Positions 173-10,456 of a stretch of DNA of 24,000 nt are shown in pieces. The DNA lies in assembly GCA_017452445.1 (NCBI GenBank), contig JAFTMH010000005.1, forward strand, positions 15,351 through 39,350, written 5' to 3'. The notes under the pieces are model-generated. The model saw only the letters and a list, made by a program, of their open reading frames with translations. It was not told the DNA's origin and ran no database searches. Numbering within the stretch: the stretch's first letter is position 1; every line of letters begins with the position of its first letter. Origin of the DNA: Clostridia bacterium (lineage in GTDB: Bacteria; Bacillota; Clostridia; Christensenellales; UBA1242). Position numbers and translations under genes: made by a program.

Positions 173-216
173 GATTAAAAATTTTTATTTTGTCAAACAT
201 CTTTGCAGAGGTGGTT

Positions 217-972
217 ATGAAGATTTGGAATGACAAAGAGGTAAAGTTTTTGTTTGAGAAGGTTGAGGAGTGCAAGCAAAAAGCAATTTCACTCAAGTTT
301 GCATTTGAAGAGCATGCCAAAGTTTTTGAAAGAAAAGCAAACAGTGTGCGAAATTATTATTATCAAGAGGTAGAAAATTTGCACAAAGACACACACAGGT
401 GTCAAAGGTTGCAGATTGATTTGCGCAAGCATCAAAAAGCACAATTTGTGAGATTTAACGCTGAGTCCGAAAAGAAATTGGCAGAACAGATTGGGCAACT
501 TACGGCAAATGGAATGTCTGTTAGATCTGCATGCGAAAAGTTGAGTGGTGGAGATTTGGCCGTGATGACAAGGATTCAAAACAAATATCAATCTCTAAAA
601 AGAAGGGCTGTCAAGGCAGGCAATGTTGTGGTGTTTAGAAAACAAAATTTGCTTGGAGAAGAAGAAATCAACAGTCTGTTTTTGGGGCTTGTGAAGTTGG
701 TTAAAAAATCTGCAACCGAAGAGGTTGAGGCAAGGTTTAAAGAAGAAAAACTAGGGGCAAACTTGGCGATCAAAAAGGCAACCAAAACAATTTTGGAAAA
801 AGATGAGGTTATTTCAAATTTGAAAAGAGAAATTGAGAAATTGAAGCAAGAAAATTGTTTTTTGTCTGAGCAATTGGCTGGTGGAAAAAGCAGACAGCAA
901 CAACTTAAAGATCATTTTGCACAAAACTCTCAACAAAACAACTTCAAAAACAAAAAAGAGTTTGATTTGTAG
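217..972 (+). CDS. Hypothetical DNA-binding protein with two Myb/SANT-like (RsfA-like) helix-turn-helix segments and a C-terminal coiled coil
   Basis: ATG 217 follows GAGGTGG (208-214); the track ORF from 190 is an N-terminal extension. The N-terminus W-x3-E-x3-LF...SLKFAFEEHAKVF-RKANSVRNYYY matches the Myb/RsfA pattern W..EED..L...AFEE....R....RW. A second similar segment is FNAESEKKLAEQIGQLTANGMSVRSACEKL...IQNKYQSLKRR. The C-terminus is heptad-like (EVISNLKREIEKLKQENCFLSEQL). Existence as a CDS is likely; the family assignment is by eye. Confidence 0.7.
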   Translation: MKIWNDKEVKFLFEKVEECKQKAISLKFAFEEHAKVFERKANSVRNYYYQEVENLHKDTHRCQRLQIDLRKHQKAQFVRFNAESEKKLAEQIGQLTANGMSVRSACEKLSGGDLAVMTRIQNKYQSLKRRAVKAGNVVVFRKQNLLGEEEINSLFLGLVKLVKKSATEEVEARFKEEKLGANLAIKKATKTILEKDEVISNLKREIEKLKQENCFLSEQLAGGKSRQQQLKDHFAQNSQQNNFKNKKEFDL

Positions 973-996
973 GTGTTGTTGTGGTAAAATTTGAGT

Positions 997-3900
997 ATGA
1001 AAATCAAATTGGTTGAAGGTGCAACTGCTTACGAAGCGGCAATAAACACTTTGCAATATGTTGATGCAAAGGATTTGACAAAGGACAATCTTGTTGTTGT
1101 GCCTGATACTTTTTCTATGCAAGCAGAAAGTTTGCTTTTTGATGTGCTTGGCACAAAATCAGTGTTCAACGCAAAAGTGGTTGGCATTTCAAAACTTGCC
1201 AGCAGCATTTTAAGAAAAAACAACATTCCTTTTCAAAGAATTAGTGGACTTGAAGAAGTGTTTGTCGTTTTTAAAGCAGTAAAAGAATGTGAAAGCAGTT
1301 TTCAATATTTCAAAAAATGCAGTGTTGATTTTTGCATCAAAATCCTTAAAATAATAAAACAATTTAAGGCGTGCAAAGTTTTGCCAAGCGCAATAAAGAA
1401 AGTTGGCGATCAACTTTTGGATAGAAAAATGGCTGATTTAAGGCTTGTTTATCAAAAATATGAAGATTTGCTCGGTGAGCGCCTCGACTTGTCTAAAATG
1501 CTTGATTTTTTTGCAAAAAATGCAGAAAATTGCATTGATTTGTCAAATGTAAATTTATTTTTTGTAAATTTTGACAGCTTTTCAGCAGAGATAAGTTCGT
1601 TTATTTGCAAGTTGGCAGCATCTGCCAATTTGACATACATAGGCATGGCAAAACCAATTTCAGTTGGCAATGCGTTTATTTATGAAGATGACATTTTTGA
1701 AAAGGTGAAAATGTTTTCAAAAGAAAACTCTGTTTTGGTGGAAATTGAAAACAAACCAACTGCTTTGACAGGAAACAGATTGAAGCTTGTCGAAAATCTT
1801 TTTTCTTTTGATGTGACAAAAGGTGAAGATAAAAATTATTTTACAAATATTATTGCACAAAACAGACAAGACGAAGTTGAATTTGTTGCAAAATACATAA
1901 AACATCAAGCTTGGCAAGGTGGCAGATTTAAAGATTTTGCAATTGCAGTGTCTGATCCGGTTTATTATGACAAAATAAAAGAAGTTTTTTCGCAATATGA
2001 CATTACATATTATTGTGACGATGCTGTAAATTTGTCGCACACGATTTTGGGTAGATTTTTGACAAAACTTTTGCAGATTGCAAAACTTGACTTTGATAAA
2101 GAATCGCTTGAATATTTGGTTTCGCACCCATTGACAGAGTGTGAAAACAAAGCACAGATTTTGTCTGACATTTGGTATTTTAATGTTGAAGATGAAATCG
2201 AATTTGAACAAAGGTTTGGTCAGTTGAATAATATTGTTTCTGAGATAAAAAACCTTAGAAAATGCAAAAAATGTGCTGATTTTGCAATAATTTTGAAAAA
2301 AATAATCCAAATTGTTGACGAAAAATATTTAAAAATGATTGAAACCTTGCATCAAGACGATTTGTTTAAGCAAGAAAGCGAAAACGCACAAGCGAAAGAT
2401 TTGATTGTTGCTGTGCTTGACAAACTTGCTCAACTTGGAGAGCAAGACAAAATTGATTTGATAGATTTTGAAAATCTGTTTGCACTCTCTCTTGAAAGTG
2501 TTAAGGTGGAAACAATCCCATCTTATGTAGATGCTGTTTATGTTGGAGATGCAACAGGAAGTTATTTTGAAGATGTTTCGCAGTTGATTGTTTTGGGAGC
2601 AACAGCAAATGCCCTTCCTCGCACACAAGGTGATGTAGGGATCATTGATGATGCTGATATCGAAAAGTTGAGATTGAACTTTAGATTGGAACCTGAAATC
2701 AAAGTTTTAAATCGCAGAAGCAGATTGAAATTGTTTGAATGTTTGCAACACGCAAAAGACAGGCTTATTGTCTGTCAACCGGCAGCAGAAGATGGTCAAA
2801 TTTCGCAACAGGCAAGTTTTGTTGAAGATTTGAAACTTATGTTTGGCAACAATGTCGCACATACGGTTGTTTTTGAAAAAATTGAAACACCAACTTTGAC
2901 AAAAGAAGAAATGTTGAGCAAACTTTTAAGATATTTGGGCAACAAAACAAACTTGACAAATGCTTACACAAAACTTAAAGCAACAGACAGCATGCCAAAA
3001 AATTTTGCAGGCGAACTTGCACATTTGGCAGAAAACAGTGTGACAAAACCTGTTGAGTTTGAAACTTTGCCAAAAGAGATTGCAAATAAGGCAGCGTTTG
3101 CAAAAGGCACAGTTTCTGCTTCTAGACTTGAAAAATATTTTGATTGCCCGTTCAATCATTTTGTTAATTATATTTTGGGAGTAAAACAGAAAAACAACAT
3201 TCAACCAACAAAACTTTTGTTTGGAAATTTTCAACATGAGTTGATTGAAAAATTTGTTGCTGACAACAATTTTGATGTTTCAAAAGTAGATGCAAAGGGG
3301 ATTGAGAGATTTTTAGACGAAAACTTTATGACCATTGCAAAAAAACATTATGATGAAAAAATAATTTCAAAAAAGAGTTTTCTTGCTTATCTAAAAAATG
3401 AAAGTGTCATAATTTTGAGGTCTGTGGTTTATGAGCAATCAAACAGCAACTTTAGACCTGCCAAATTGGAAGAGTTTGTTGGTGGGCCAATTGCAAACGA
3501 AGTTAAACTTGTGGGCAGAGTTGATAGAATTGATGTTTGCGACAATTATTTTAGAATTTTGGATTACAAAACTGGCAATGTTGGCAGCGTTTTGAAAGAT
3601 TTGTATTATGGCAACAAATTGCAACTGTTTTTGTATGGGAAAGAAGCACAACGCAAGTTGGGCAAAGATTGTGCAGGATTGTATTATTTCAAATGCAACA
3701 CAAATTACAAGTCACAAAGTGCAAAAAACGAAAATTTGTTTAGAGGACTTACCAAAAAAGACAATGATGTTGTCGAAAATTCTGATCGCAGATTGCTAGA
3801 TGAAGGATCAAAAAGTGATATTATCGGCATGGCTAGAAAGAAAGATGATGGCAAACAAACATTTTCGTTTAAGTATGGAAGTCCCGTTGAAGATTTTGAT

Positions 3901-4086
3901 GTGCTTTTTGATTATGCAACAAAAGTTTCACAAGGTGCGATCGAAGAAATAAAGCAAGGTTACATCAAAGACAAACCTTATGAAGGCAAGTGTGAAGGTT
4001 GCCCTTATGGTGCAATCTGCAAGCATAACCCATTGAGTGGTTATAGAATTTTGCAAAAAGTCGAAAAAATAGAATTGGGAGAATAA
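997..4086 (+). CDS. addB: ATP-dependent helicase/nuclease subunit B (AddB/RexB type) with an Fe-S-stapled PD-(D/E)XK nuclease domain
   Basis: About 1030 aa, immediately upstream of and overlapping addA. The C-terminal nuclease motif is GRVDRIDV...RILDYKTG. Four Cys sit in the AddB iron-staple layout: YFDCPFNHF, then CEGCPYGAIC. The start is ambiguous between TTG 991 and ATG 997. Confidence 0.9.
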   Translation: MKIKLVEGATAYEAAINTLQYVDAKDLTKDNLVVVPDTFSMQAESLLFDVLGTKSVFNAKVVGISKLASSILRKNNIPFQRISGLEEVFVVFKAVKECESSFQYFKKCSVDFCIKILKIIKQFKACKVLPSAIKKVGDQLLDRKMADLRLVYQKYEDLLGERLDLSKMLDFFAKNAENCIDLSNVNLFFVNFDSFSAEISSFICKLAASANLTYIGMAKPISVGNAFIYEDDIFEKVKMFSKENSVLVEIENKPTALTGNRLKLVENLFSFDVTKGEDKNYFTNIIAQNRQDEVEFVAKYIKHQAWQGGRFKDFAIAVSDPVYYDKIKEVFSQYDITYYCDDAVNLSHTILGRFLTKLLQIAKLDFDKESLEYLVSHPLTECENKAQILSDIWYFNVEDEIEFEQRFGQLNNIVSEIKNLRKCKKCADFAIILKKIIQIVDEKYLKMIETLHQDDLFKQESENAQAKDLIVAVLDKLAQLGEQDKIDLIDFENLFALSLESVKVETIPSYVDAVYVGDATGSYFEDVSQLIVLGATANALPRTQGDVGIIDDADIEKLRLNFRLEPEIKVLNRRSRLKLFECLQHAKDRLIVCQPAAEDGQISQQASFVEDLKLMFGNNVAHTVVFEKIETPTLTKEEMLSKLLRYLGNKTNLTNAYTKLKATDSMPKNFAGELAHLAENSVTKPVEFETLPKEIANKAAFAKGTVSASRLEKYFDCPFNHFVNYILGVKQKNNIQPTKLLFGNFQHELIEKFVADNNFDVSKVDAKGIERFLDENFMTIAKKHYDEKIISKKSFLAYLKNESVIILRSVVYEQSNSNFRPAKLEEFVGGPIANEVKLVGRVDRIDVCDNYFRILDYKTGNVGSVLKDLYYGNKLQLFLYGKEAQRKLGKDCAGLYYFKCNTNYKSQSAKNENLFRGLTKKDNDVVENSDRRLLDEGSKSDIIGMARKKDDGKQTFSFKYGSPVEDFDVLFDYATKVSQGAIEEIKQGYIKDKPYEGKCEGCPYGAICKHNPLSGYRILQKVEKIELGE

Positions 4087-7000
4087 TGGCAAAACGAGAT
4101 CCTATTCCAGAACAATTGGCTGTTTTGGAAAATGACAAAAAAAACATGTTGGTCAGTGCCTCTGCAGGCAGTGGCAAGACTTTTATTATGATTGAATATG
4201 TCGCTAAACTTGTTGTCAAACAAAAAATCCCAGTGCAACAACTTTTGGTGCTTACATACACAAAAGCGGCTGCGACCGAAATGAAAGAAAGGTTGCTCAA
4301 AAAGTTGAAAGAAGAGTCGCAAAAAGATTTGTTTGTTGTAGAACAAATTGACAATTTGTCGACTGCCAACATTTGCACAATCCATGCTTATTGCGAAAAA
4401 TGTATAAAAAAATACGCAAATTTGCTTGATATCAACGAAAGTTTTGAAGTTTTGGACGAAAACGCTGCAAACAAATTGAAATCAACAGCATTTGTGCGTG
4501 CTTTTGAAAAAATGAAAGAATGTTATTCTGCCGAATATCAGCTTTTGGTTGAAATTTTCAAAAATGACAAAGAAAAAATCAAAACTATGATGCTTGGCAT
4601 CGAAGAATTGGCAAATTCTGTTTCTGACAAAGAAGAGTTTTTGACAAACAATGTCAAAAATATGGAAACTTATTTTGATCAAGCATTGCAGTTTTTGTGT
4701 GAAAATTTGAAAGAAAAAATCCAATCAAAATTGCACAGTTTGGAATGTTTGCATGCAGAAGATTATTATGACAAAGTCCGTGCAACCGTTTTGCCGGTTT
4801 TGAATGCAAAAGATTTGTTTGAAATTGCAACAATTAAAGAATGCTTAAAATATCCAAACAAACCAAGCGACAAATTGTATGGCAAAGAAATCGCAACTGC
4901 TGCAGGAAAAATCAAAGATTCTATCAAAAAAATGATAGATGAAGTTGAAAAGCTTGATTTGCAAGATGAAGTCAATGTAGACAAGCAAAGGTCGGGAGAG
5001 TTTGAAAAATTGTTACTCAAACTTTTTGACATCTACGAAAAAGAGCAAGAAGAACTTAAAAAGCTTAAAAATTGTCTTACATTTTCCGACTTTGAAAAAT
5101 ATATGAGCATTTTGTCAAAACAAGAAGATTTGTTTTCAAATCTTAAATATGTTTTTGTTGATGAATATCAAGATACAAACAAAATGCAAGAGAGAATTGT
5201 TAAAAATGTTGCCAAAAACTGCAATTTTGTTGCAGTTGGCGATGCAAAACAAGGGATTTATGGTTTTAGACTTGCAAGTTTTGAAATTTTTTTGAAAGAT
5301 ACCGAAAATTTTTCAAAAGATGAAAATTCGACGGTTAAAAATCTTAAAACCAATTTTAGAAGCAGTCAACATATTTTGTCATTTGTAAACAAGATTTTTG
5401 AAGTTTGCATGACAAAAGAACATTGTGGCATTGACTACAAAAAAGATGCTATGCTCAAAGAGTTTGCCCCTTTTGGCGAAGATGGGCAAAAAGCAATCAA
5501 TATAGATTTGATTGAAGAAGAAAAATTGCCAGAAAAAGAGTTGCCACAAATTTACAGCGTCAAAGAAGACGAACTTGTTGTCAAAGAAAATAAAATTGCG
5601 CAACTTGTTGACATTAGAAACAAAATTGTCGAAGTTATGCAAACTTCAATTTATGAAAACAAACAACTAAGAAGATGTCAATACAAAGATATTGCCATTT
5701 TGTTTAGGGAAAGAAACGGGCTGTTTAACCAACTTGAAAAATTTTTGATTGAAAGTGGAATTCCTGTGGTTTCAAACTCAAAAAATGTTTTGTTGGAAGA
5801 AGCAGAAATACAAGTGTTGCTCAATCTTTTAAAACTTGCTTTAAATGTTGATGATGACATTGCATTGTTGAGTGTGATCAATTCGCCATTCTGCAACATT
5901 GATTTCTTTGAAGTGGTGAAAGAAAAAGCGTCAACAGAAAAAACTCTTTGTCAGTTGGTTGTTGAAGATGAGAAGGGTTTGTTTGCTCAATTTAATCAAA
6001 CAATTGCAGATTTTTCAAAAAATATTCAAATTTTTGGTGCAAGAAGTGCATTTTTAAAACTTTTTGACAAAGTTGATTATCGTGCATACATAAACACAAA
6101 ACCAAATCAACACAATCTCAACAATTATATAGACACATTTTTGTCAGAAATTGATGCTTGTGATTTGGGTTATGATTTGCCGGGGCTTATCAATTATTTT
6201 GAAAGTGTCAAAATTACAGTGCAGTCGCAACCATCTTCAATAGGCGATGCAGTTTTGCTTACAACAATTCACAACAGCAAAGGGCTTGAATATCCAATTG
6301 TGTTTATGGCGGAGTGTGACAAAAAGATAAGAAAAAACGACACAAAATCCACAATGAGCATAAACGAAAGGTTTGGTTTTGCTGCAAAACTTTTTGATCA
6401 AGAAGAAAACACATCGGTTGATTCGGTGCGCATGAGGGCAATAAAAGAATCAAAACGAAAAAAAGAGTTTATTGAAGAACTTATGATTTTTTATGTTGCG
6501 CTTACAAGACCAAAAAATCGTTTGTATCTTTTTGGCGAGTTTAGCGACAAAATTTTTGAAGATAAAACACTTGATGAGTGTGAATGTTATTTTGATCTGA
6601 TCTTCTATGCGTTGAAAAAAGAAAAGTTTGAGTTGATGGCAAATGGCAGATACGAAGACGAAAATACGAAGATTTCTTTTGTTGGGCTAGAACAAGAAAA
6701 AACATTTGTTGAAAAACAATCTTTTGAAATGGCTGAATATGATCCGGGAATTGTGCAAAAAATCGAAAAATATCTCAATTTTGAATATAAATACAGCAGA
6801 ATTAAAAACTTTAAATTGAAAGAAAGTGTGACTGGCTTGTCAAAAAGGCATGACGAAGATCAACTTTTGAAATATTCAAACGACAATTTTGTTTTTTCAA
6901 ATAATATGGTTGAAATTGGAAACGCTTATCACTTGGCTTTGAAGTTGATTGATTTTGCAAAAGTGAGTGACGAGCAAACTTTGCATCAAGAATTGCAAAA

Positions 7001-7397
7001 ATGGAATGATGTTTTGCAAGAAGGTGCAAGTTTGATTGATGAAAAGGTGCTTTTGCGCAACATTTTGCTTCTCAAACAGGTTGTTGGAGATGGTGTTGTG
7101 TTTAAAGAAAAAGATTTTATCACAAAAGACAGCATCTGCAATTTGATTGAAGGTGAAGTTGAAAAAGACGAAATTTTTGTTCAGGGCATCATCGACTTGT
7201 TTGTTGTCAAAGGAGATGAAATAGTTTTGATTGACTATAAATATTCAAATTCTACAAGTGATGACTATCTTGTGGATAAATATAAAAATCAATTAAAATT
7301 ATACAAAAATTCGTTAAAAAATGCATTTTCTAAGCAAATAAATGATGTTTATTTGTTGTCATTAAAGCATTCAAAACTTATAAAAGTTGACATTTAA
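4086..7397 (+). CDS. addA: ATP-dependent helicase/nuclease subunit A (AddA/RexA), a UvrD-like SF1 helicase with a C-terminal nuclease
   Basis: Walker A is SASAGSGKTF and the DEYQD box is VDEYQDTN. Helicase motifs TIHNSKGLEYPIVF and YVALTRPKNRLYL are present. The C-terminal RecB-type nuclease motif is GIIDLFVV...VLIDYKYS. GGGAG lies at 4077-4081, and the start overlaps the addB stop as TAATG. Confidence 0.95.
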   Translation: MAKRDPIPEQLAVLENDKKNMLVSASAGSGKTFIMIEYVAKLVVKQKIPVQQLLVLTYTKAAATEMKERLLKKLKEESQKDLFVVEQIDNLSTANICTIHAYCEKCIKKYANLLDINESFEVLDENAANKLKSTAFVRAFEKMKECYSAEYQLLVEIFKNDKEKIKTMMLGIEELANSVSDKEEFLTNNVKNMETYFDQALQFLCENLKEKIQSKLHSLECLHAEDYYDKVRATVLPVLNAKDLFEIATIKECLKYPNKPSDKLYGKEIATAAGKIKDSIKKMIDEVEKLDLQDEVNVDKQRSGEFEKLLLKLFDIYEKEQEELKKLKNCLTFSDFEKYMSILSKQEDLFSNLKYVFVDEYQDTNKMQERIVKNVAKNCNFVAVGDAKQGIYGFRLASFEIFLKDTENFSKDENSTVKNLKTNFRSSQHILSFVNKIFEVCMTKEHCGIDYKKDAMLKEFAPFGEDGQKAINIDLIEEEKLPEKELPQIYSVKEDELVVKENKIAQLVDIRNKIVEVMQTSIYENKQLRRCQYKDIAILFRERNGLFNQLEKFLIESGIPVVSNSKNVLLEEAEIQVLLNLLKLALNVDDDIALLSVINSPFCNIDFFEVVKEKASTEKTLCQLVVEDEKGLFAQFNQTIADFSKNIQIFGARSAFLKLFDKVDYRAYINTKPNQHNLNNYIDTFLSEIDACDLGYDLPGLINYFESVKITVQSQPSSIGDAVLLTTIHNSKGLEYPIVFMAECDKKIRKNDTKSTMSINERFGFAAKLFDQEENTSVDSVRMRAIKESKRKKEFIEELMIFYVALTRPKNRLYLFGEFSDKIFEDKTLDECECYFDLIFYALKKEKFELMANGRYEDENTKISFVGLEQEKTFVEKQSFEMAEYDPGIVQKIEKYLNFEYKYSRIKNFKLKESVTGLSKRHDEDQLLKYSNDNFVFSNNMVEIGNAYHLALKLIDFAKVSDEQTLHQELQKWNDVLQEGASLIDEKVLLRNILLLKQVVGDGVVFKEKDFITKDSICNLIEGEVEKDEIFVQGIIDLFVVKGDEIVLIDYKYSNSTSDDYLVDKYKNQLKLYKNSLKNAFSKQINDVYLLSLKHSKLIKVDI

Positions 7398-7466: not shown

Positions 7467-7473
7467 CATATAG

Positions 7474-7546
7474 AAAAAAATTATAAAAAAATATTTAAAA
7501 AATTATTGAAAAATATTAGTAATTATTTTTTTAGTTGTGATATACT
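7474..7546 (+). promoter_or_regulatory. Extended -10 promoter (TGaTATACT, 7538-7546) preceded by four roughly phased A-tracts
   Basis: TG at 7538-7539 and TATACT at 7541-7546, 23 nt upstream of ATG 7569. There is no good -35 hexamer. The upstream ~65 bp is almost pure A/T, with A-tracts starting at 7474, 7485, 7497 and 7509. Confidence 0.5.
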
Positions 7547-7568
7547 ATTGCATATACAAGGGGGTTTT

Positions 7569-10007
7569 ATGATTTCGACAATTTGTGATATCGTAGGCAA
7601 TGTAGTAAAATTTTTGACAAATGCTACAAACAAACTTGGTTTGGACCTTTTGACAATCATCGCTTTGGGCGTTGAAGTGCTTTTGGTGCTCTTCTTCTTG
7701 ATCAAGTCTGCACTTTCTTATGAGTCAGCTTTGAACAGAGCGTTGGACAAGGTCAACTATTGGTTGTTTGAAAAGAAAGTTGTCACTGAAGAAAATGTTA
7801 GAGAGTTGAATGATCTTTTCAAAAAGAAAGGTCCAAAAAGACTCTGCTATTATTGGCAACAATACATACTCTTTAGAGAACATGATCCATCAGAATATCT
7901 TTCAACAGACAATTTGATTGAAAAGCCATTGAAGACAAGTTCTGCACAATCAAACATCAAAAACTTGGGATTGTTTACAACTATCTGGGCTTTCATTGCA
8001 TCAATGTTTATTTTGATTGCAGAAGCAATTGAAGCAAATGTGCTTACAGGCACAGCGTTGGTTACTTCTATGCTTGTAGCATTGATTATCTGTGTGATTG
8101 GTTTTGGTTTTGTGGCTTATATGAGAGCAAGAAAGAATGCAGTGCTCAATTCGCTCTATCAAAGCGTTTCGCTTTTTGGTAGATTTATGGACAATGCCTG
8201 CGTAGATCTTCCATCATATATTGACTATCAAATTCTCTTTACTCCACAAGAAATCGAGAAGGGACAACCTGTTTTGCGTGAATTCTTGGATTATAAAGCA
8301 AGAAAAGAGAAAGAAGAATTCAACCGTTCTAAAGAAGAAATTGTTGAACATGTTTCATATGACTTCTCTGAAACAGGCGTTGACGGATCTATCGTGCTTG
8401 AAAGAGCAATGAGAGAAAGCGAACTCTTCTTGAAAAAGAAAGAAAGATTGCTCGTTAAAGTTTCTCAATTGGAATCAGAACTTGAATCTAGAAGAAAGAA
8501 CTTTGATAATGTTCAAAAAGAATCTCAAACAAAGATTCAAGCATCAAAAGAAAATATTCTTAGACTTCGTCAGATGCAAGAAGAAACAACAAACAGAATT
8601 GAAAGCAACTATTACAGAAAGCAACAAACACAAGAAATTGCTAAGCAAGAACAACTCGAACAAGAATTTGAACAACAAAGAGCAAAATACTTGCTTGAAA
8701 AGAATGAAGGCGAAGAAGAAATCAAGAAACTTAATGACGAGCTTGAAGGTTATCGCAAAAATGTTGAAAATGCAATGCTCAACGAATATCAAACATTCTT
8801 CAACAAATTCTGTAAGAGTGCAGAAAAAGTGGTTGCAAAAGTGTTTGCTGACAAGATCATTTCTTTGAAAGATCAAAATGCAAAAGATAAAGAATATATT
8901 ACTTCACTTGAAATCAAGTTGAAAAATGCTGGACAAGGTGATTTTGATTTGCCATCAGATCCAGCAACTCCAGCAACAACAAATCCAACTGAAGGTGTGA
9001 CAGACATTCCTGCAGAAGGAAGATATGACGAAGCTGGAAACTATTTGTATCCAAATGGAACATGGTACGACCCACAAGGAAACTTCCATGATGAAAACGG
9101 AAATGTTTATTCTCAAGATGGACAATTGATTTCTTCAGCAGCTGACAATGCTCAAGCTGCACAAGAAGTTGCTGCACCTGCAGAAGAAAAGAAAGTTGTA
9201 AACTTTGATGACTTTGATGACTTCGACTTTATGACAGATGTTGCACAAAAAGACGACATCTACAATGTTGCAGAAAAGGTTATTGAAGAAGTTGACACAG
9301 ATGACAGCATCGAAGTTGTAAACAACAGCGCTGAAGAAGTTGCTGCACCTGCAGAAGAATCTCCAGTTGTAGAAGAAAAGAAAGTTGTTGATGATTCGTT
9401 TGAAGATTTTGATATCGACGCACAACCAAAAGCAGAAGAAAAACCTGCTCTTGTAGATTTCGATTTTGATGAAATGGAAGAAAAATCTGATGATGGTGAT
9501 GAAGAACCTGCTGAAGCAGTAGAGGCACAACCAAAGAAAAAGGCTGGCCGTCCAAGAAAAGTTGTTACTGAAGAAAATCAAGCGCCAAAGAGAAGAGTTG
9601 GCAGACCTAAAAAAGTAGTGACAGACGAACCTGCAAAAGAAAAGAGAAGTGTTGGTAGACCAAAGAAAATTGTTAAGCCAGCAGCTGCTGAAGATGGCGA
9701 AAAGAGAGGCAGAGGTAGACCAAAAAAAACGGTTGAATCAGTTTCTGAAATAAACAAAAAACTCTCTGAAGAAGAAGCAAGATTGAGTCAAGCAAAAGAA
9801 GAAATTGACAACGAAATCAAACTTGCAGCAAATGCAATGGAAAACAATGATCCAAAGCAAGCAAGAAGAGAGCAACTTCTTAAAGAAATTGAAGCACTTC
9901 AAAACGAAGCTGCAACAGTTATGGGACAAGAAGAATCTGAAGGAAAAATTGCAGAAATTAATGCAAAACTTGAAAACCTTCTTGATGAAATTAAAAACTT
10001 GAACTAA
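7569..10007 (+). CDS. Large membrane-anchored coiled-coil protein with an acidic FD-rich region and four C-terminal AT-hook motifs (HMGA/CarD-like tail); function unknown
   Basis: ATG 7569 follows AAGGGGG (7558-7564); the track ORF from TTG 7506 runs through the promoter. Three hydrophobic segments are present: LLTIIALGVEVLLVLFFLI, LGLFTTIWAFIASMFILIAEAI, and ALVTSMLVALIICVIGFGFVAYM followed by RARKN. They are followed by about 220 aa of E/K/Q-rich heptad sequence, a G/N/Y/D-rich segment, an acidic region, and 4x GRP(R/K)K. The gene has its own promoter and a strong terminator. Confidence 0.85.
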   Translation: MISTICDIVGNVVKFLTNATNKLGLDLLTIIALGVEVLLVLFFLIKSALSYESALNRALDKVNYWLFEKKVVTEENVRELNDLFKKKGPKRLCYYWQQYILFREHDPSEYLSTDNLIEKPLKTSSAQSNIKNLGLFTTIWAFIASMFILIAEAIEANVLTGTALVTSMLVALIICVIGFGFVAYMRARKNAVLNSLYQSVSLFGRFMDNACVDLPSYIDYQILFTPQEIEKGQPVLREFLDYKARKEKEEFNRSKEEIVEHVSYDFSETGVDGSIVLERAMRESELFLKKKERLLVKVSQLESELESRRKNFDNVQKESQTKIQASKENILRLRQMQEETTNRIESNYYRKQQTQEIAKQEQLEQEFEQQRAKYLLEKNEGEEEIKKLNDELEGYRKNVENAMLNEYQTFFNKFCKSAEKVVAKVFADKIISLKDQNAKDKEYITSLEIKLKNAGQGDFDLPSDPATPATTNPTEGVTDIPAEGRYDEAGNYLYPNGTWYDPQGNFHDENGNVYSQDGQLISSAADNAQAAQEVAAPAEEKKVVNFDDFDDFDFMTDVAQKDDIYNVAEKVIEEVDTDDSIEVVNNSAEEVAAPAEESPVVEEKKVVDDSFEDFDIDAQPKAEEKPALVDFDFDEMEEKSDDGDEEPAEAVEAQPKKKAGRPRKVVTEENQAPKRRVGRPKKVVTDEPAKEKRSVGRPKKIVKPAAAEDGEKRGRGRPKKTVESVSEINKKLSEEEARLSQAKEEIDNEIKLAANAMENNDPKQARREQLLKEIEALQNEAATVMGQEESEGKIAEINAKLENLLDEIKNLN
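9163..9359 (+). repeat. Intragenic direct repeat: an identical 26-nt unit at 9163-9188 and 9334-9359 (171 nt apart, in frame)
   Basis: AAGAAGTTGCTGCACCTGCAGAAGAA occurs twice and encodes EVAAPAEE. Each copy is followed by KKVV and an acidic D/F module. Confidence 0.85.
9546..9722 (+). other. Array of four AT-hook cores (G-R-P) inside the 7569-10007 CDS
   Basis: GRP codons lie at 9546-9554, 9600-9608, 9654-9662 and 9714-9722. Their contexts are KKKAGRPRKVV, KRRVGRPKKVV, KRSVGRPKKIV and KRGRGRPKKTV. Spacing is 18, 18 and 20 aa. Confidence 0.85.
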
Positions 10008-10010
10008 AAG

Positions 10011-10039
10011 AAAAGACTGCAAATCGCAGTCTTTTTTTT
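10011..10039 (+). terminator. Rho-independent terminator of the 7569-10007 gene
   Basis: AAAAGACTGC, loop AAATC, then GCAGTCTTTT, continuing into a T-run (10032-10039). It starts 4 nt after the stop codon. Confidence 0.85.
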
Positions 10040-10110
10040 GTTGGGATTTTGAAATAGTAAGACTTTTTTACGCAATAGCTATTGAGGGTGAGTGATAGAC
10101 AAACTTGCAA

Positions 10111-10140
10111 CAAAAAACACAACCTAAAATCTGGTTGTGT
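10111..10140 (-). terminator. Rho-independent terminator of the minus-strand unit (small membrane protein / radical SAM)
   Basis: ACACAACC (10117-10124) and GGTTGTGT (10133-10140) form an 8-bp stem. On the minus strand the hairpin is followed by TTTTTTG (complement of 10111-10117), about 20 nt downstream of the stop at 10160. Confidence 0.7.
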
Positions 10141-10159
10141 TTGAGTTTTGTAGACTTAA

Positions 10160-10456
10160 TTAAAACAATACGATATATCCTTGTACGAGTCCATAAACAA
10201 GCAAAACGATTGCCAAAATGATAAATAAAAATCCGAGAATGAAACTTATAAGTGCAGATGGAGTGCGGCGATATTCTCTGTGATAGCCACCGTTATACAT
10301 CAAAGCAAGGCCAACAAAATAAGCGACATAAGTTAATGCCAAAAAAGAATCCAATGATTTGATAAGATTGAAGTGATACAAAACAGCAAAGACAACTGCT
10401 GCGAGAGCGAATATAATGCCAAAGCCCATACATTTTTTAGGTGATATCTTTCCCAT
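10160..10456 (-). CDS. Small integral membrane protein (98 aa, about 3 TM segments), function unknown
   Basis: There is a strong SD: AAGGAGATAAATT then ATG (complement of 10454-10469). Hydrophobic stretches are GFGIIFALAAVVFAVL, LALTYVAYFVGLALM and LISFILGFLFIILAIVLLVYGLV. Confidence 0.75.
   Translation of the reverse strand: MGKISPKKCMGFGIIFALAAVVFAVLYHFNLIKSLDSFLALTYVAYFVGLALMYNGGYHREYRRTPSALISFILGFLFIILAIVLLVYGLVQGYIVLF

What the first reader, a model, noticed from the sequence alone, without database searches (positions are those of the whole stretch)
9130..9735. Acidic region followed by four evenly spaced AT-hooks mirrors the eukaryotic HMGA / Myxococcus CarD layout
Four G-R-P cores lie at codons starting 9546, 9600, 9654 and 9714. 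Their contexts are KKKAGRPRKVV, KRRVGRPKKVV, KRSVGRPKKIV and KRGRGRPKKTV, spaced 18, 18 and 20 aa apart. Immediately N-terminal is a strongly acidic stretch (FDDFDDFDF, SFEDFDID, VDFDFDEMEEKSDDGDEE). The RGRP core flanked by basic residues is the established AT-hook. An acidic segment adjacent to four AT-hooks is the arrangement described for the HMGA-like C-terminal domain of M. xanthus CarD, which is considered rare in bacteria. Finding it in a low-GC Bacillota-like genome, fused to a membrane anchor rather than to an RNAP-interacting domain, appears to be a different deployment of the module.
Basis: partly seen in the sequence, partly recalled or inferred. Interest (0 to 1): 0.62.

Follow-up and report, generated by a model that had tools for sequence, protein, structure and literature searches.

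The report
ZorA-like membrane protein with AT-hooks
The acidic stretch and four AT-hooks are real and conserved, and they form the DNA-binding tail of an undescribed membrane protein of uncultured gut Clostridia whose anchor resembles the ZorA/ExbB motor subunit, which has no motor partner and is nearly always encoded right after the DNA-break-processing genes addB-addA, so it probably holds DNA at the membrane.

Summary
The four GRP cores sit exactly at nt 9546, 9600, 9654 and 9714, each flanked by basic residues and preceded by an acidic segment. They pass Pfam AT_hook (21.8 vs 17.4 bits). This is the only ORF in the 1.1-Mb genome with such a motif. All 120 closest homologs keep 4-8 hooks.

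The gene (7569-10007, 812 aa) encodes, in order:
- a 3-TM domain;
- a helical stalk of about 180 aa;
- YD-like beta-hairpins;
- a small conserved FDxFD element;
- an acidic disordered linker;
- the hook array;
- a C-terminal helical cap.

Two AlphaFold models both hit ZorA, then ExbB/TolQ, as best PDB folds. A profile-profile link to real ZorAB pairs of the same order gives 68% probability (decoys <1%). Direct ZorA/MotA HMMs do not match, no ZorB/ExbD/OmpA partner exists, and the TM helices are poorly conserved. It therefore looks like a motor-dead anchor.

addA lies directly upstream in 69 of 74 related loci. Sister clades replace the hooks with Lys/Ala/Pro-rich H1-like tails. The acidic-then-basic order holds in 86 of 89 representatives, which echoes the CarD experiments.

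The resemblance to CarD is analogy, not homology. The most likely function is a membrane-DNA tether linked to AddAB; this is inferred, not shown. The scan found the same family before in at least 8 other genomes, with the same reading.

The parts
7569..10007 (+). Whole gene, 812 aa (P0001). ATG at 7569 behind a GGGGG ribosome-binding site; stop codon 10005-10007.
   Evidence: full-length homologs
7470..7568 (+). AT-rich intergenic leader with A-tracts and a TGTGATATACT -10-like element. No terminator-like site was found between addA and the gene.
   Evidence: promoter function not tested
7641..7703 (+). TM1 (aa 25-45)
   Evidence: hydropathy; helix in both AF2 models
7704..7967 (+). Cytoplasmic loop (aa 46-133). 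One of the two most conserved parts of the family; carries the motif PKxLRxxWQQY...PSxY.
   Evidence: aligned with the equivalent loop of ZorA-like proteins
7968..8123 (+). TM2-TM3 hairpin (aa 134-155 and 163-185). Poorly conserved; one Pro in TM3 is kept in >=90% of the family but is not present in this protein.
   Evidence: aligned to the MotA_ExbB hairpin of ZorA-like proteins
8124..8384 (+). Membrane-proximal cytoplasmic region (aa 186-272). The most conserved segment of the family.
8385..8927 (+). Helical stalk (aa 273-453), pLDDT about 90. Includes the stretch RLRQMQEETTNRIESN-YRKQQTQE (aa 332-356), invariant at every position but one (Y/F) among the homologs.
9009..9134 (+). Three YD-like beta-hairpin repeats (aa 481-522; YDxxGN). 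The repeat number ranges from 0 to 9 across the family.
9189..9326 (+). Conserved FDxFDxFDFMTD...IYxVAE element (aa 541-586). Predicted small alpha/beta unit with pLDDT 62-79.
9327..9530 (+). Acidic disordered linker (aa 587-654), net charge about -7 to -10 per 30 aa, pLDDT about 30. Contains a recent duplication: 9334-9371 copies 9163-9200 at 87% identity.
9531..9734 (+). Array of four AT-hooks (aa 655-722), with GRP cores at 9546, 9600, 9654 and 9714. Disordered. Encoded by a degenerate 54-nt tandem repeat.
9735..10004 (+). C-terminal three-helix cap (aa 723-812), conserved among the close homologs (>=54% identity); similar helical ends seen in some distant members.
10011..10035 (.). Stem-loop with T/A runs on both sides, after the stop codon; a bidirectional terminator-like site.
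991..7397 (+). addB (991-4086) and addA (4086-7397), the conserved upstream neighbours.
190..972 (+). 260-aa coiled-coil protein upstream of addB, found in the same position in 35 of the 80 related loci.

Best explanation
The gene encodes a cytoplasmic-membrane protein, and the acidic-plus-AT-hook segment is its DNA-binding end.

Anatomy. The N-terminal 3-TM module (N-out, C-in, with a large cytoplasmic loop between TM1 and TM2) is a very divergent relative of the A subunit of 5:2 ion-driven motors; it is closest to ZorA. It has no B subunit and no conserved channel residues, so it most likely serves as a static and perhaps oligomeric anchor. From it a helical stalk of about 180 aa (up to about 27 nm if extended) projects into the cytoplasm. 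The stalk ends in a disordered acidic linker followed by four AT-hooks and a helical cap.

Mechanism (inferred). The hooks insert into the minor groove of the AT-rich chromosome (36% GC) and hold DNA near the membrane. The preceding acidic segment probably tunes this binding electrostatically, as acidic regions do in HMG-type proteins. Because the gene follows addB-addA in nearly all relatives, the tether probably works with AddAB in processing DNA ends at the membrane.

Shown here: the motif array and its conservation, the domain order, the fold resemblance, the lack of a partner, and the synteny. Inferred: topology, oligomeric state, DNA binding, and any link to AddAB function.
For: Hooks:
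- They pass Pfam AT_hook.
- They are unique in the genome.
- They are kept in 120 of 120 close homologs at 4-8 copies.
- They are present at 2-11 copies in 50 of 115 family representatives, concentrated in two clades.
- Clades without hooks carry Lys/Ala/Pro- or Arg-rich tails at the same place.
- The acidic window precedes the basic one in 86 of 89 representatives.
- Experiments show that CarD works with HMGA, H1 or any basic disordered tail (PMC8156234). Together these indicate selection for a generic DNA-binding polycation.

Anchor:
- Two separate AF2 models (pLDDT 79.7 and 73.0) both give ZorA as the top four PDB hits (E 5e-4 to 4e-3, prob 1.00, target-normalised TM 0.45-0.51), followed by ExbB and TolQ.
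- hhalign of aa 1-300 against 123 ZorA-like proteins of the same order gives prob 67.6%, E 5e-5, with 116 columns in register over the loop motif plus TM2-TM3. Reversed and shuffled decoys give <=0.9%. Those target proteins do hit ZorA HMMs and sit beside ZorB-like genes.

No partner and no motor signature:
- The 99%-complete genome has no real MotA_ExbB hit (the one sub-threshold match is a DegV gene) and no ExbD, OmpA or ZorB match.
- No downstream gene is conserved.
- The TM helices have 0-1 positions conserved at >=80%, against 20-23 in the cytoplasmic parts.

Topology: positive residues flank the cytoplasmic sides, giving the same orientation as ExbB/ZorA.

Synteny:
- addA is directly upstream on the same strand in 69 of 74 loci from named Christensenellales/Clostridia MAGs, with a median gap of 154 nt.
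- The same holds in 6 of 7 remote homologs from other families of the order.
Against: - No experiment exists for any member of the family.
- Direct sequence tests for ZorA/MotA membership fail.
- The fold match is moderate (TM about 0.45-0.5) for an all-helical model, and the profile link is 68%, not decisive.
- Three of the four hooks lack the first Arg of RGRP. GRP-core hooks with distant basic residues have been reported to prefer RNA (my own knowledge).
- 22 of 115 representatives have neither hooks nor a strongly basic tail, and remote homologs have only acidic tails. DNA binding is therefore not universal to the membrane module.
- Conserved gene order with addAB may reflect co-regulation or history rather than joint function.
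- About a fifth of sampled genomes of the taxonomic family lack a detectable copy (46 of 60 have one).
Confidence: 0.55

Rival explanations
1. A stripped-down, chromosomally fixed Zorya-like defence module. The ZorA-like protein senses envelope or DNA-entry events, grips incoming DNA with its own hooks (taking over the role of ZorC), and AddAB serves as the helicase-nuclease effector (in place of ZorD).
For: ZorA is the best fold hit, twice. There is a profile link to real ZorAB pairs in the same order. In Zorya the ZorA tail recruits a DNA binder and a nuclease near the membrane (PMC11946911). The gene is tightly linked to the helicase-nuclease genes addB-addA.
Against: No ZorB or any peptidoglycan-binding partner was found, yet Zorya needs ZorB anchoring and ion flow. 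The TM helices are not conserved. The gene sits at a fixed core position in hundreds of species rather than patchily in defence islands. No PADLOC model matches. In a 1.1-Mb genome AddAB is most likely the housekeeping enzyme.
Confidence: 0.12
2. The tail is a charged disordered region whose GRP motifs do not bind the chromosome. It might bind RNA, form condensates through acidic/basic block interactions, or simply act as a spacer.
For: The segment is predicted disordered (pLDDT about 30). Three hooks are non-canonical. Hooks can be replaced by other basic sequences or be absent. Acidic and basic blocks always occur together.
Against: The GRP core and its flanking K/R residues are kept across 120 of 120 close homologs and in two deep clades, despite free drift of the spacers between them. 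The last hook, KRGRGRPKK, has a canonical RGRP core flanked by basic residues on both sides. The replacements are H1-like DNA-binding-type sequences.
Confidence: 0.12
3. An active 5:2-type ion-driven motor whose B subunit is too divergent or too small to be recognised, rotating a DNA-binding tail.
For: The fold and the register of TM2-TM3 match the stator A subunits. A Pro in TM3 is kept in >=90% of the family.
Against: No ExbD, MotB or ZorB match in the genome. No conserved neighbour that could be a B subunit. There are no conserved polar TM residues; the TMs are the least conserved structured parts.
Confidence: 0.08
4. A membrane-tethered transcription regulator that works like CarD/HMGA at specific AT-rich promoters.
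For: Same acidic-plus-four-hooks layout as CarD. There is an A-tract-rich region upstream of its own gene.
Against: No RNAP-interacting domain. The stalk and membrane anchoring do not fit a promoter-bound factor. The tail sequence is interchangeable with non-specific H1-like tails.
Confidence: 0.04
5. The long C-terminal part is extracellular and binds extracellular DNA or anionic wall polymers.
For: YD-like repeats resemble motifs common in surface proteins. AT-hooks would bind extracellular DNA.
Against: The positive-inside rule puts both the TM1-TM2 loop and the segment after TM3 in the cytoplasm. The orientation matches ExbB/ZorA. A 600-aa highly charged coiled-coil and disordered segment is an unlikely export substrate. 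The gene is linked to cytoplasmic AddAB.
Confidence: 0.04

Closest known systems
ZorA, A subunit of the Zorya ZorA5B2 anti-phage motor (PDB 8qyd, 8qyk, 8qyy, 8vvn; PMC11946911)
   Same: Three-TM topology with a large cytoplasmic loop, TM3 continuing into a long cytoplasmic helical tail, and a tail that serves contacts with DNA-handling proteins. Best fold match for two models. Weak profile link through ZorA-like proteins of the same order.
   Different: No ZorB, ZorC or ZorD. No match to ZorA/MotA_ExbB HMMs. TM helices not conserved. The stalk is about 180 aa, against about 500 aa in ZorA. The tail carries its own DNA-binding hooks, YD-like hairpins and a disordered acidic linker. The gene holds a core, syntenic position next to addAB instead of lying in a defence island.
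[quoted passage not shown]
   Same: A disordered segment made of an acidic region followed by four AT-hooks. Natural replacement of hooks by H1-like basic tails in relatives parallels the experimental HMGA/H1 swaps in CarD.
   Different: No CarD_CdnL_TRCF RNAP-binding domain and no detectable homology. Attached to a membrane module and a stalk. Followed by a helical cap rather than ending the protein. Only one hook has RGRP. Found in gut Clostridia, not myxobacteria.
Eukaryotic HMGA1/HMGA2
   Same: The last hook, EKRGRGRPKK, closely resembles the HMGA hook core as I recall it (my own knowledge, not compared here). Hooks lie in a disordered region and are paired with an acidic segment.
   Different: In HMGA the acidic tail lies C-terminal to the hooks (my own knowledge). 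HMGA proteins are small, soluble nuclear proteins of about 100 aa.
ExbB / TolQ / MotA stator A subunits (Pfam PF01618)
   Same: Fold-level similarity of the TM1-loop-TM2-TM3 module, at ranks 5-50 in Foldseek.
   Different: No sequence match. hhalign against 14 MotA proteins of the same order gives 0.1-0.7%. No ExbD/TolR/MotB partner and no conserved channel residues.
Membrane-to-nucleoid tethers with a TM, coiled-coil and DNA-binding architecture, e.g. plant plastid MFP1 (papers listed; its architecture is from my own knowledge)
   Same: The same logic of membrane anchor, coiled coil and C-terminal DNA-binding part.
   Different: Unrelated sequences, and a different anchor and DNA-binding type. 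MFP1's main role is now thought to lie in starch granule positioning (PMC10801857 abstract).

Membership tests
AT-hook motif (Pfam PF02178) | GRP core flanked by Lys/Arg, scoring above the family's gathering threshold | tested here: met
   21.8 bits against a cut-off of 17.4 for the whole protein; four [KR]x0-2GRP[KR] motifs. No single hook passes on its own.
AT-hook motif (Pfam PF02178) | Canonical R-G-R-P core | tested here: inconclusive
   Only hook 4 (RGRGRPKK) has it. Hooks 1-3 are AGRP, VGRP and VGRP.
AT-hook motif (Pfam PF02178) | Conservation of the core in relatives, as opposed to low-complexity drift | tested here: met
   120 of 120 close homologs have 4-8 hooks. Two deep clades carry hooks in 29 of 32 and 19 of 20 representatives.
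AT-hook motif (Pfam PF02178) | Minor-groove binding to AT-rich DNA | not testable with these tools
   Needs gel-shift or footprinting with GRP mutants.
CarD (CarD_CdnL_TRCF family with HMGA-like tail) | N-terminal RNAP-beta-interacting Tudor-like domain (PF02559) | tested here: not met
   No such Pfam hit at E <= 0.1. The N-terminus is a 3-TM module.
CarD (CarD_CdnL_TRCF family with HMGA-like tail) | Acidic segment followed by four AT-hooks in a disordered C-terminal region | tested here: met
   description of CarD
HMGA | Small soluble protein with three hooks followed by an acidic C-terminal tail | tested here: not met
   An 812-aa membrane protein in which the acidic part precedes the hooks. 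The HMGA order is from my own knowledge.
MotA/ExbB/TolQ/ZorA superfamily (5:2 motor A subunits) | Match to the MotA_ExbB (PF01618) or ZorA HMMs | tested here: not met
   No hit in Pfam, NCBIfam or PADLOC, and no hit on this gene in the genome search with PDLC00601.
MotA/ExbB/TolQ/ZorA superfamily (5:2 motor A subunits) | Fold: TM1, cytoplasmic helices, TM2-TM3 hairpin, with TM3 extended into the cytoplasm | tested here: met
   Foldseek top hits are ZorA, ExbB and TolQ for two independent models. Scores are moderate (TM 0.43-0.51).
MotA/ExbB/TolQ/ZorA superfamily (5:2 motor A subunits) | Remote sequence homology by profile-profile comparison | tested here: inconclusive
   67.6% probability, E 5e-5, in register with ZorA-like proteins, against decoys <=0.9%. 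Against flagellar MotA the probability is 0.1-0.7%.
MotA/ExbB/TolQ/ZorA superfamily (5:2 motor A subunits) | Adjacent B subunit (MotB/ExbD/TolR/ZorB) with an Asp-bearing TM helix | tested here: not met
   No ExbD, OmpA or ZorB1 match in the 99%-complete genome. The upstream gene is addA, and no downstream gene is conserved.
MotA/ExbB/TolQ/ZorA superfamily (5:2 motor A subunits) | Strongly conserved TM2-TM3 channel residues | tested here: not met
   0-1 positions at >=80% in the TM helices, against 20-23 in the cytoplasmic segments.
MotA/ExbB/TolQ/ZorA superfamily (5:2 motor A subunits) | Pentameric assembly | not testable with these tools
   Only monomer prediction was available.
Zorya defence system | ZorA and ZorB together with ZorC/D, ZorE or ZorF/G effectors in one locus | tested here: not met
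   None of these was found. The neighbours are addB and addA.

The most novel reading that the evidence does not exclude
A domesticated, ZorB-less descendant of a Zorya-type stator has become a fixed core component of small-genome gut Clostridia. It forms an oligomeric membrane platform whose stalks present up to 20 AT-hooks, capture DNA at the membrane and hand its ends to AddAB. This would be a previously unknown membrane-coupled branch of bacterial DNA-end processing, or of defence against incoming DNA, in which the DNA-binder and nuclease roles of ZorC/ZorD are filled by a fused hook array and by AddAB.
Probability: 0.15. Interest if true: 0.85.

Novelty: new variant of a known kind. Interest (0 to 1): 0.7.

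Why it matters
- AT-hook arrays are regarded as rare in bacteria, and CarD is the textbook case. Here they are a standard part of a protein family found in hundreds of uncultured gut Clostridia species.
- The natural swaps between hook arrays and H1-like tails give an evolutionary counterpart to the CarD domain-swap experiments.
- The family shows that the ZorA/ExbB-type membrane module can persist without its B subunit, as a probable static anchor.
- It points to a physical link between membrane, chromosome and AddAB that has not been described. It offers a testable candidate for nucleoid-membrane tethering in minimal-genome Firmicutes.

Tried and rejected
- Direct family searches of the whole protein found only AT_hook in Pfam. 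NCBIfam gave one spurious weak hit, and PADLOC gave only an SMC-like coiled-coil hit to LmuB.
- A profile search of PDB sequences found only designed helical bundles matching the C-terminal helices.
- hhalign against 14 flagellar MotA proteins of the same order gave no signal.
- The genome search with PF02178 is uninformative: the model is too short and rang in none of the control genomes.
- The apparent MotA_ExbB hit elsewhere in the genome is a DegV gene and is spurious.
- A search for a conserved downstream partner gene failed. The best cluster covers 17 of 67 loci and lies on the opposite strand.
- I tested whether hook-bearing tails go with lower GC than hook-less tails. They do not: median GC is 31.5% against 30.5%.
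- Glu36 in TM1 is invariant among close homologs and looked like a possible channel residue. It is not kept in the wider family.
- Literature searches for a membrane-anchored bacterial AT-hook protein, or for AT-hook together with AddAB, found nothing relevant.
- The CarD HMGA/H1 paper (PMC2726384) is not held. Its result is cited through the review PMC8156234.
Full report
OBSERVATION

The ORF 7506..10007 (+) most likely starts at the ATG at 7569, behind a GGGGG ribosome-binding site, and encodes 812 aa.
- GRP cores lie at aa 660, 678, 696 and 716, which is nt 9546, 9600, 9654 and 9714.
- The three acidic strings are present. Net charge per 30 aa is -5 to -10 between aa 526 and 660, and +6 to +8 between aa 661 and 720.
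- Pfam AT_hook scores 21.8 bits against a cut-off of 17.4.
- In the whole 1.107-Mb genome (36.4% GC), GRP occurs 35 times in 536,849 aa of six-frame ORFs. This ORF is the only one of 2598 with any [KR]x0-2GRP[KR] motif, and it has four.
- At DNA level the hooks form a degenerate 54-nt tandem array: four copies of a 43-nt core at 63-74% identity.
- Caveat: only the fourth hook is RGRP. The others are AGRP or VGRP.

CONSERVATION

All 120 best homologs (54-97% identical, full length) keep 4-8 hooks, while the spacers between hooks vary freely.

A search of 1.84 billion cluster representatives with aa 1-460 found 211 clusters. Of 115 full-length representatives:
- 50 carry two or more hooks (up to 11);
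- 43 have no hook array but a strongly basic tail at the same place, for example AKKPAKAPKKAEKKPVAKSKPKAEKKPAKSPAKAPAKAPAKK;
- 22 have neither.

On a tree of the N-terminal 450 aa, hooks fill two well-supported clades (29 of 32 and 19 of 20 rows). At least 7-8 changes of state are needed. Among the 89 representatives with both a strongly acidic and a strongly basic window, the acidic one comes first in 86, whether or not the basic part is made of hooks. The acidic-then-basic layout is therefore a selected feature of the family, and hook arrays and H1-like tails are interchangeable within it.

ANATOMY

The description rests on hydropathy and two AF2 models.
- aa 1-24: amphipathic helix.
- aa 25-45: TM1.
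- aa 46-133: an 88-aa positively charged loop.
- aa 134-155 and 163-185: TM2 and TM3, followed by RARK.
- aa 186-272: conserved membrane-proximal region.
- aa 273-453: long helices, pLDDT about 90.
- aa 481-522: three YD-like beta-hairpins.
- aa 541-586: a small alpha/beta element containing FDDFDDFDFMTD...IYNVAEKVIEEV, pLDDT 62-79, conserved among close homologs.
- aa 588-722: a disordered stretch (pLDDT about 30) holding the acidic linker and the hooks.
- aa 725-811: three helices.

Two points follow. The hooks are not at the free end of the protein.

THE ANCHOR

The topology suggested a MotA/ExbB/ZorA layout before any fold search (note).
- Foldseek of the aa 1-300 model gave ZorA chains as ranks 1-5 (best E 5.4e-4, prob 1.00, TM 0.43-0.51). 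Ranks 6-50 were almost only ExbB, TolQ and PomA.
- The separately built full-length model again gave ZorA as ranks 1-4, then ExbB and TolQ.
- Direct sequence tests fail. Pfam, NCBIfam and PADLOC find nothing, a PDB profile search finds nothing, and hhalign against 14 MotA proteins of the same order finds nothing.

While collecting MotA controls I found 510-530-aa proteins in other families of the same order. They score on MotA_ExbB, hit ZorA HMMs (PADLOC 1.5e-19; NCBIfam 2.7e-18), and sit beside ZorB-like OmpA-domain genes (PADLOC ZorB1 1.8e-63). hhalign of our family's aa 1-300 profile against 123 of these gives 67.6% probability and E 5e-5. The 116 aligned columns cover the loop motif (PKxLRxxWxxY), TM2 and TM3 in register. 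Reversed and 20 column-shuffled decoys give <=0.9%.

I read the module as a very divergent member of the ZorA/ExbB fold class: probable, not proven.

IT IS NOT A MOTOR AS FAR AS CAN BE SEEN

- The 99%-complete genome has no real MotA_ExbB, ExbD, OmpA or ZorB match.
- The upstream gene is addA, and no downstream gene is conserved.
- Across the family, the TM helices have 0-1 positions conserved at >=80%. The cytoplasmic loop has 20 such positions and the membrane-proximal region has 23.
- In real stators the TM2-TM3 hairpin is the conserved core.

CONTEXT

- Relatives were confirmed in 273 species-level genomes. The 80 best loci are nearly all gut Christensenellales/Clostridia MAGs; one close homolog is labelled Candidatus Caccovivens.
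- In 69 of 74 loci with at least 1 kb upstream, addA lies directly upstream on the same strand, with a median gap of 154 nt. addB precedes it, and in 35 of the 80 loci the 260-aa coiled-coil gene precedes addB.
- In samples of the taxonomic groups, strong matches occur only in the window's own family. They were found in 7 of 7 genomes in the order-wide sample and in 46 of 60 in the family-wide sample.
- Seven genomes of other families have weak homologs of the 3-TM module alone. Six of these also follow addA. The ones read in full have other tails, hyper-acidic in three, and none has hooks or an H1-like basic tail.
- The membrane module and its addAB linkage are therefore older than the DNA-binding tail.

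MECHANISM

Best reading (confidence 0.55): a static, possibly oligomeric membrane anchor. Its cytoplasmic stalk presents a polycationic, AT-hook-based DNA-binding segment to the AT-rich chromosome. The adjacent acidic block modulates that binding, and the whole works in some connection with AddAB.

Shown: motif array, conservation, domain order, fold resemblance, absence of a partner, synteny. Inferred: topology, oligomeric state, DNA binding, functional coupling.

Rivals are listed with their refutation tests:
- a ZorB-less Zorya-like defence module using AddAB as effector (0.12);
- a charged disordered region that does not bind the chromosome (0.12);
- an active motor with a hidden B subunit (0.08);
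- a CarD-like regulator (0.04);
- an extracellular tail (0.04).

COMPARISON WITH THE KNOWN

CarD's C-terminal domain is described as a disordered acidic segment followed by four RGRP hooks (PMC4374960; PMC8156234). It works when replaced by HMGA, H1 or the H1 C-terminal tail. The present tail has the same layout, and its relatives show the same interchange in nature. There is no CarD N-terminal domain and no detectable homology, so this is convergence on a layout.

ZorA (PMC11946911) is the closest known structure for the anchor and stalk. The defining system features are missing: ZorB, ion-channel residues and ZorC/D.

No paper describing this family was found.

EARLIER NOTES OF THIS SCAN

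Follow-up agents reached the same reading for relatives in at least eight other genomes: ZorA-like, no ZorB, an AT-hook tail, and a position after addAB. I saw those notes only after my own fold search. They agree with my results and did not change them.

New in this report:
- the profile-profile bridge through real ZorAB pairs, with decoy controls;
- the hook/H1-like interchange and the acidic-before-basic rule;
- the per-region conservation argument against motor function;
- the older, hook-less addA-linked homologs;
- the genome-wide uniqueness of the hooks.

VERDICT

Novelty: a new variant of known kinds (ZorA-type module plus AT-hook tail) in an undescribed family. Interest: 0.70.

Noticed in passing
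L115:1589-4611 (also L114, L116, L117; other families of the same order): ZorAB-like pairs in Clostridia. A 510-530-aa ZorA-like protein (PADLOC ZorA1 1.5e-19) lies next to a 323-333-aa ZorB-like OmpA-domain protein (ZorB1 1.8e-63), followed by a small third gene with no family. No ZorC/D/E was seen in the stretch read. The database lists an extra Pfam family, PF28082, on these proteins that my Pfam copy does not hold.
   Followed up: partly
window 190-972 (+): A 260-aa coiled-coil protein directly upstream of addB, found in the same position in 35 of the 80 related loci (tblastn 1e-8 to 1e-49). It has no Pfam family.
   Followed up: partly
window 9163-9200 and 9334-9371: Recent internal duplication (38 nt, 87% identical) that repeats the EVAAPAEE...KKVV...FDxFD module inside the acidic region. 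A third, shorter VDFDFDE copy follows.
   Followed up: partly
window 8562-8636 (aa 332-356): A polar stretch in the stalk, RLRQMQEETTNRIESN-YRKQQTQE, is invariant at every position but one (Y/F) among the homologs (>=54% identical) and is recognisable family-wide. That is unusual for a purely structural coiled coil and suggests a partner-binding site.
   Followed up: no
window 9009-9134; P0167, P0198, P0200, P0213: YDxxGN hairpin repeats between the stalk and the acidic region vary from 0 to 9 copies among family members. Some members (e.g. P0167) end in such repeats and have no basic tail.
   Followed up: no
L108:4981-6660, L112:4907-6859: Remote addA-linked homologs of the 3-TM module in other families carry a 250-300-aa hyper-acidic disordered tail. 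It ends in a conserved helical domain of about 60 aa (LPxLVDYxLT...KIxxCLxKxM) and has no basic region.
   Followed up: partly
window 10011-10142 and 10160-10456 (-): Two terminator-like hairpins separate the gene from a convergent 98-aa ORF with four hydrophobic segments, for which no family search was run. None of the window's downstream genes is conserved next to the gene in the 80 related loci.
   Followed up: partly
window 7470-7550: The leader upstream of the gene is almost pure A/T with several A5-A7 tracts. This is the kind of DNA an AT-hook protein would bind, so autoregulation is conceivable.
   Followed up: no
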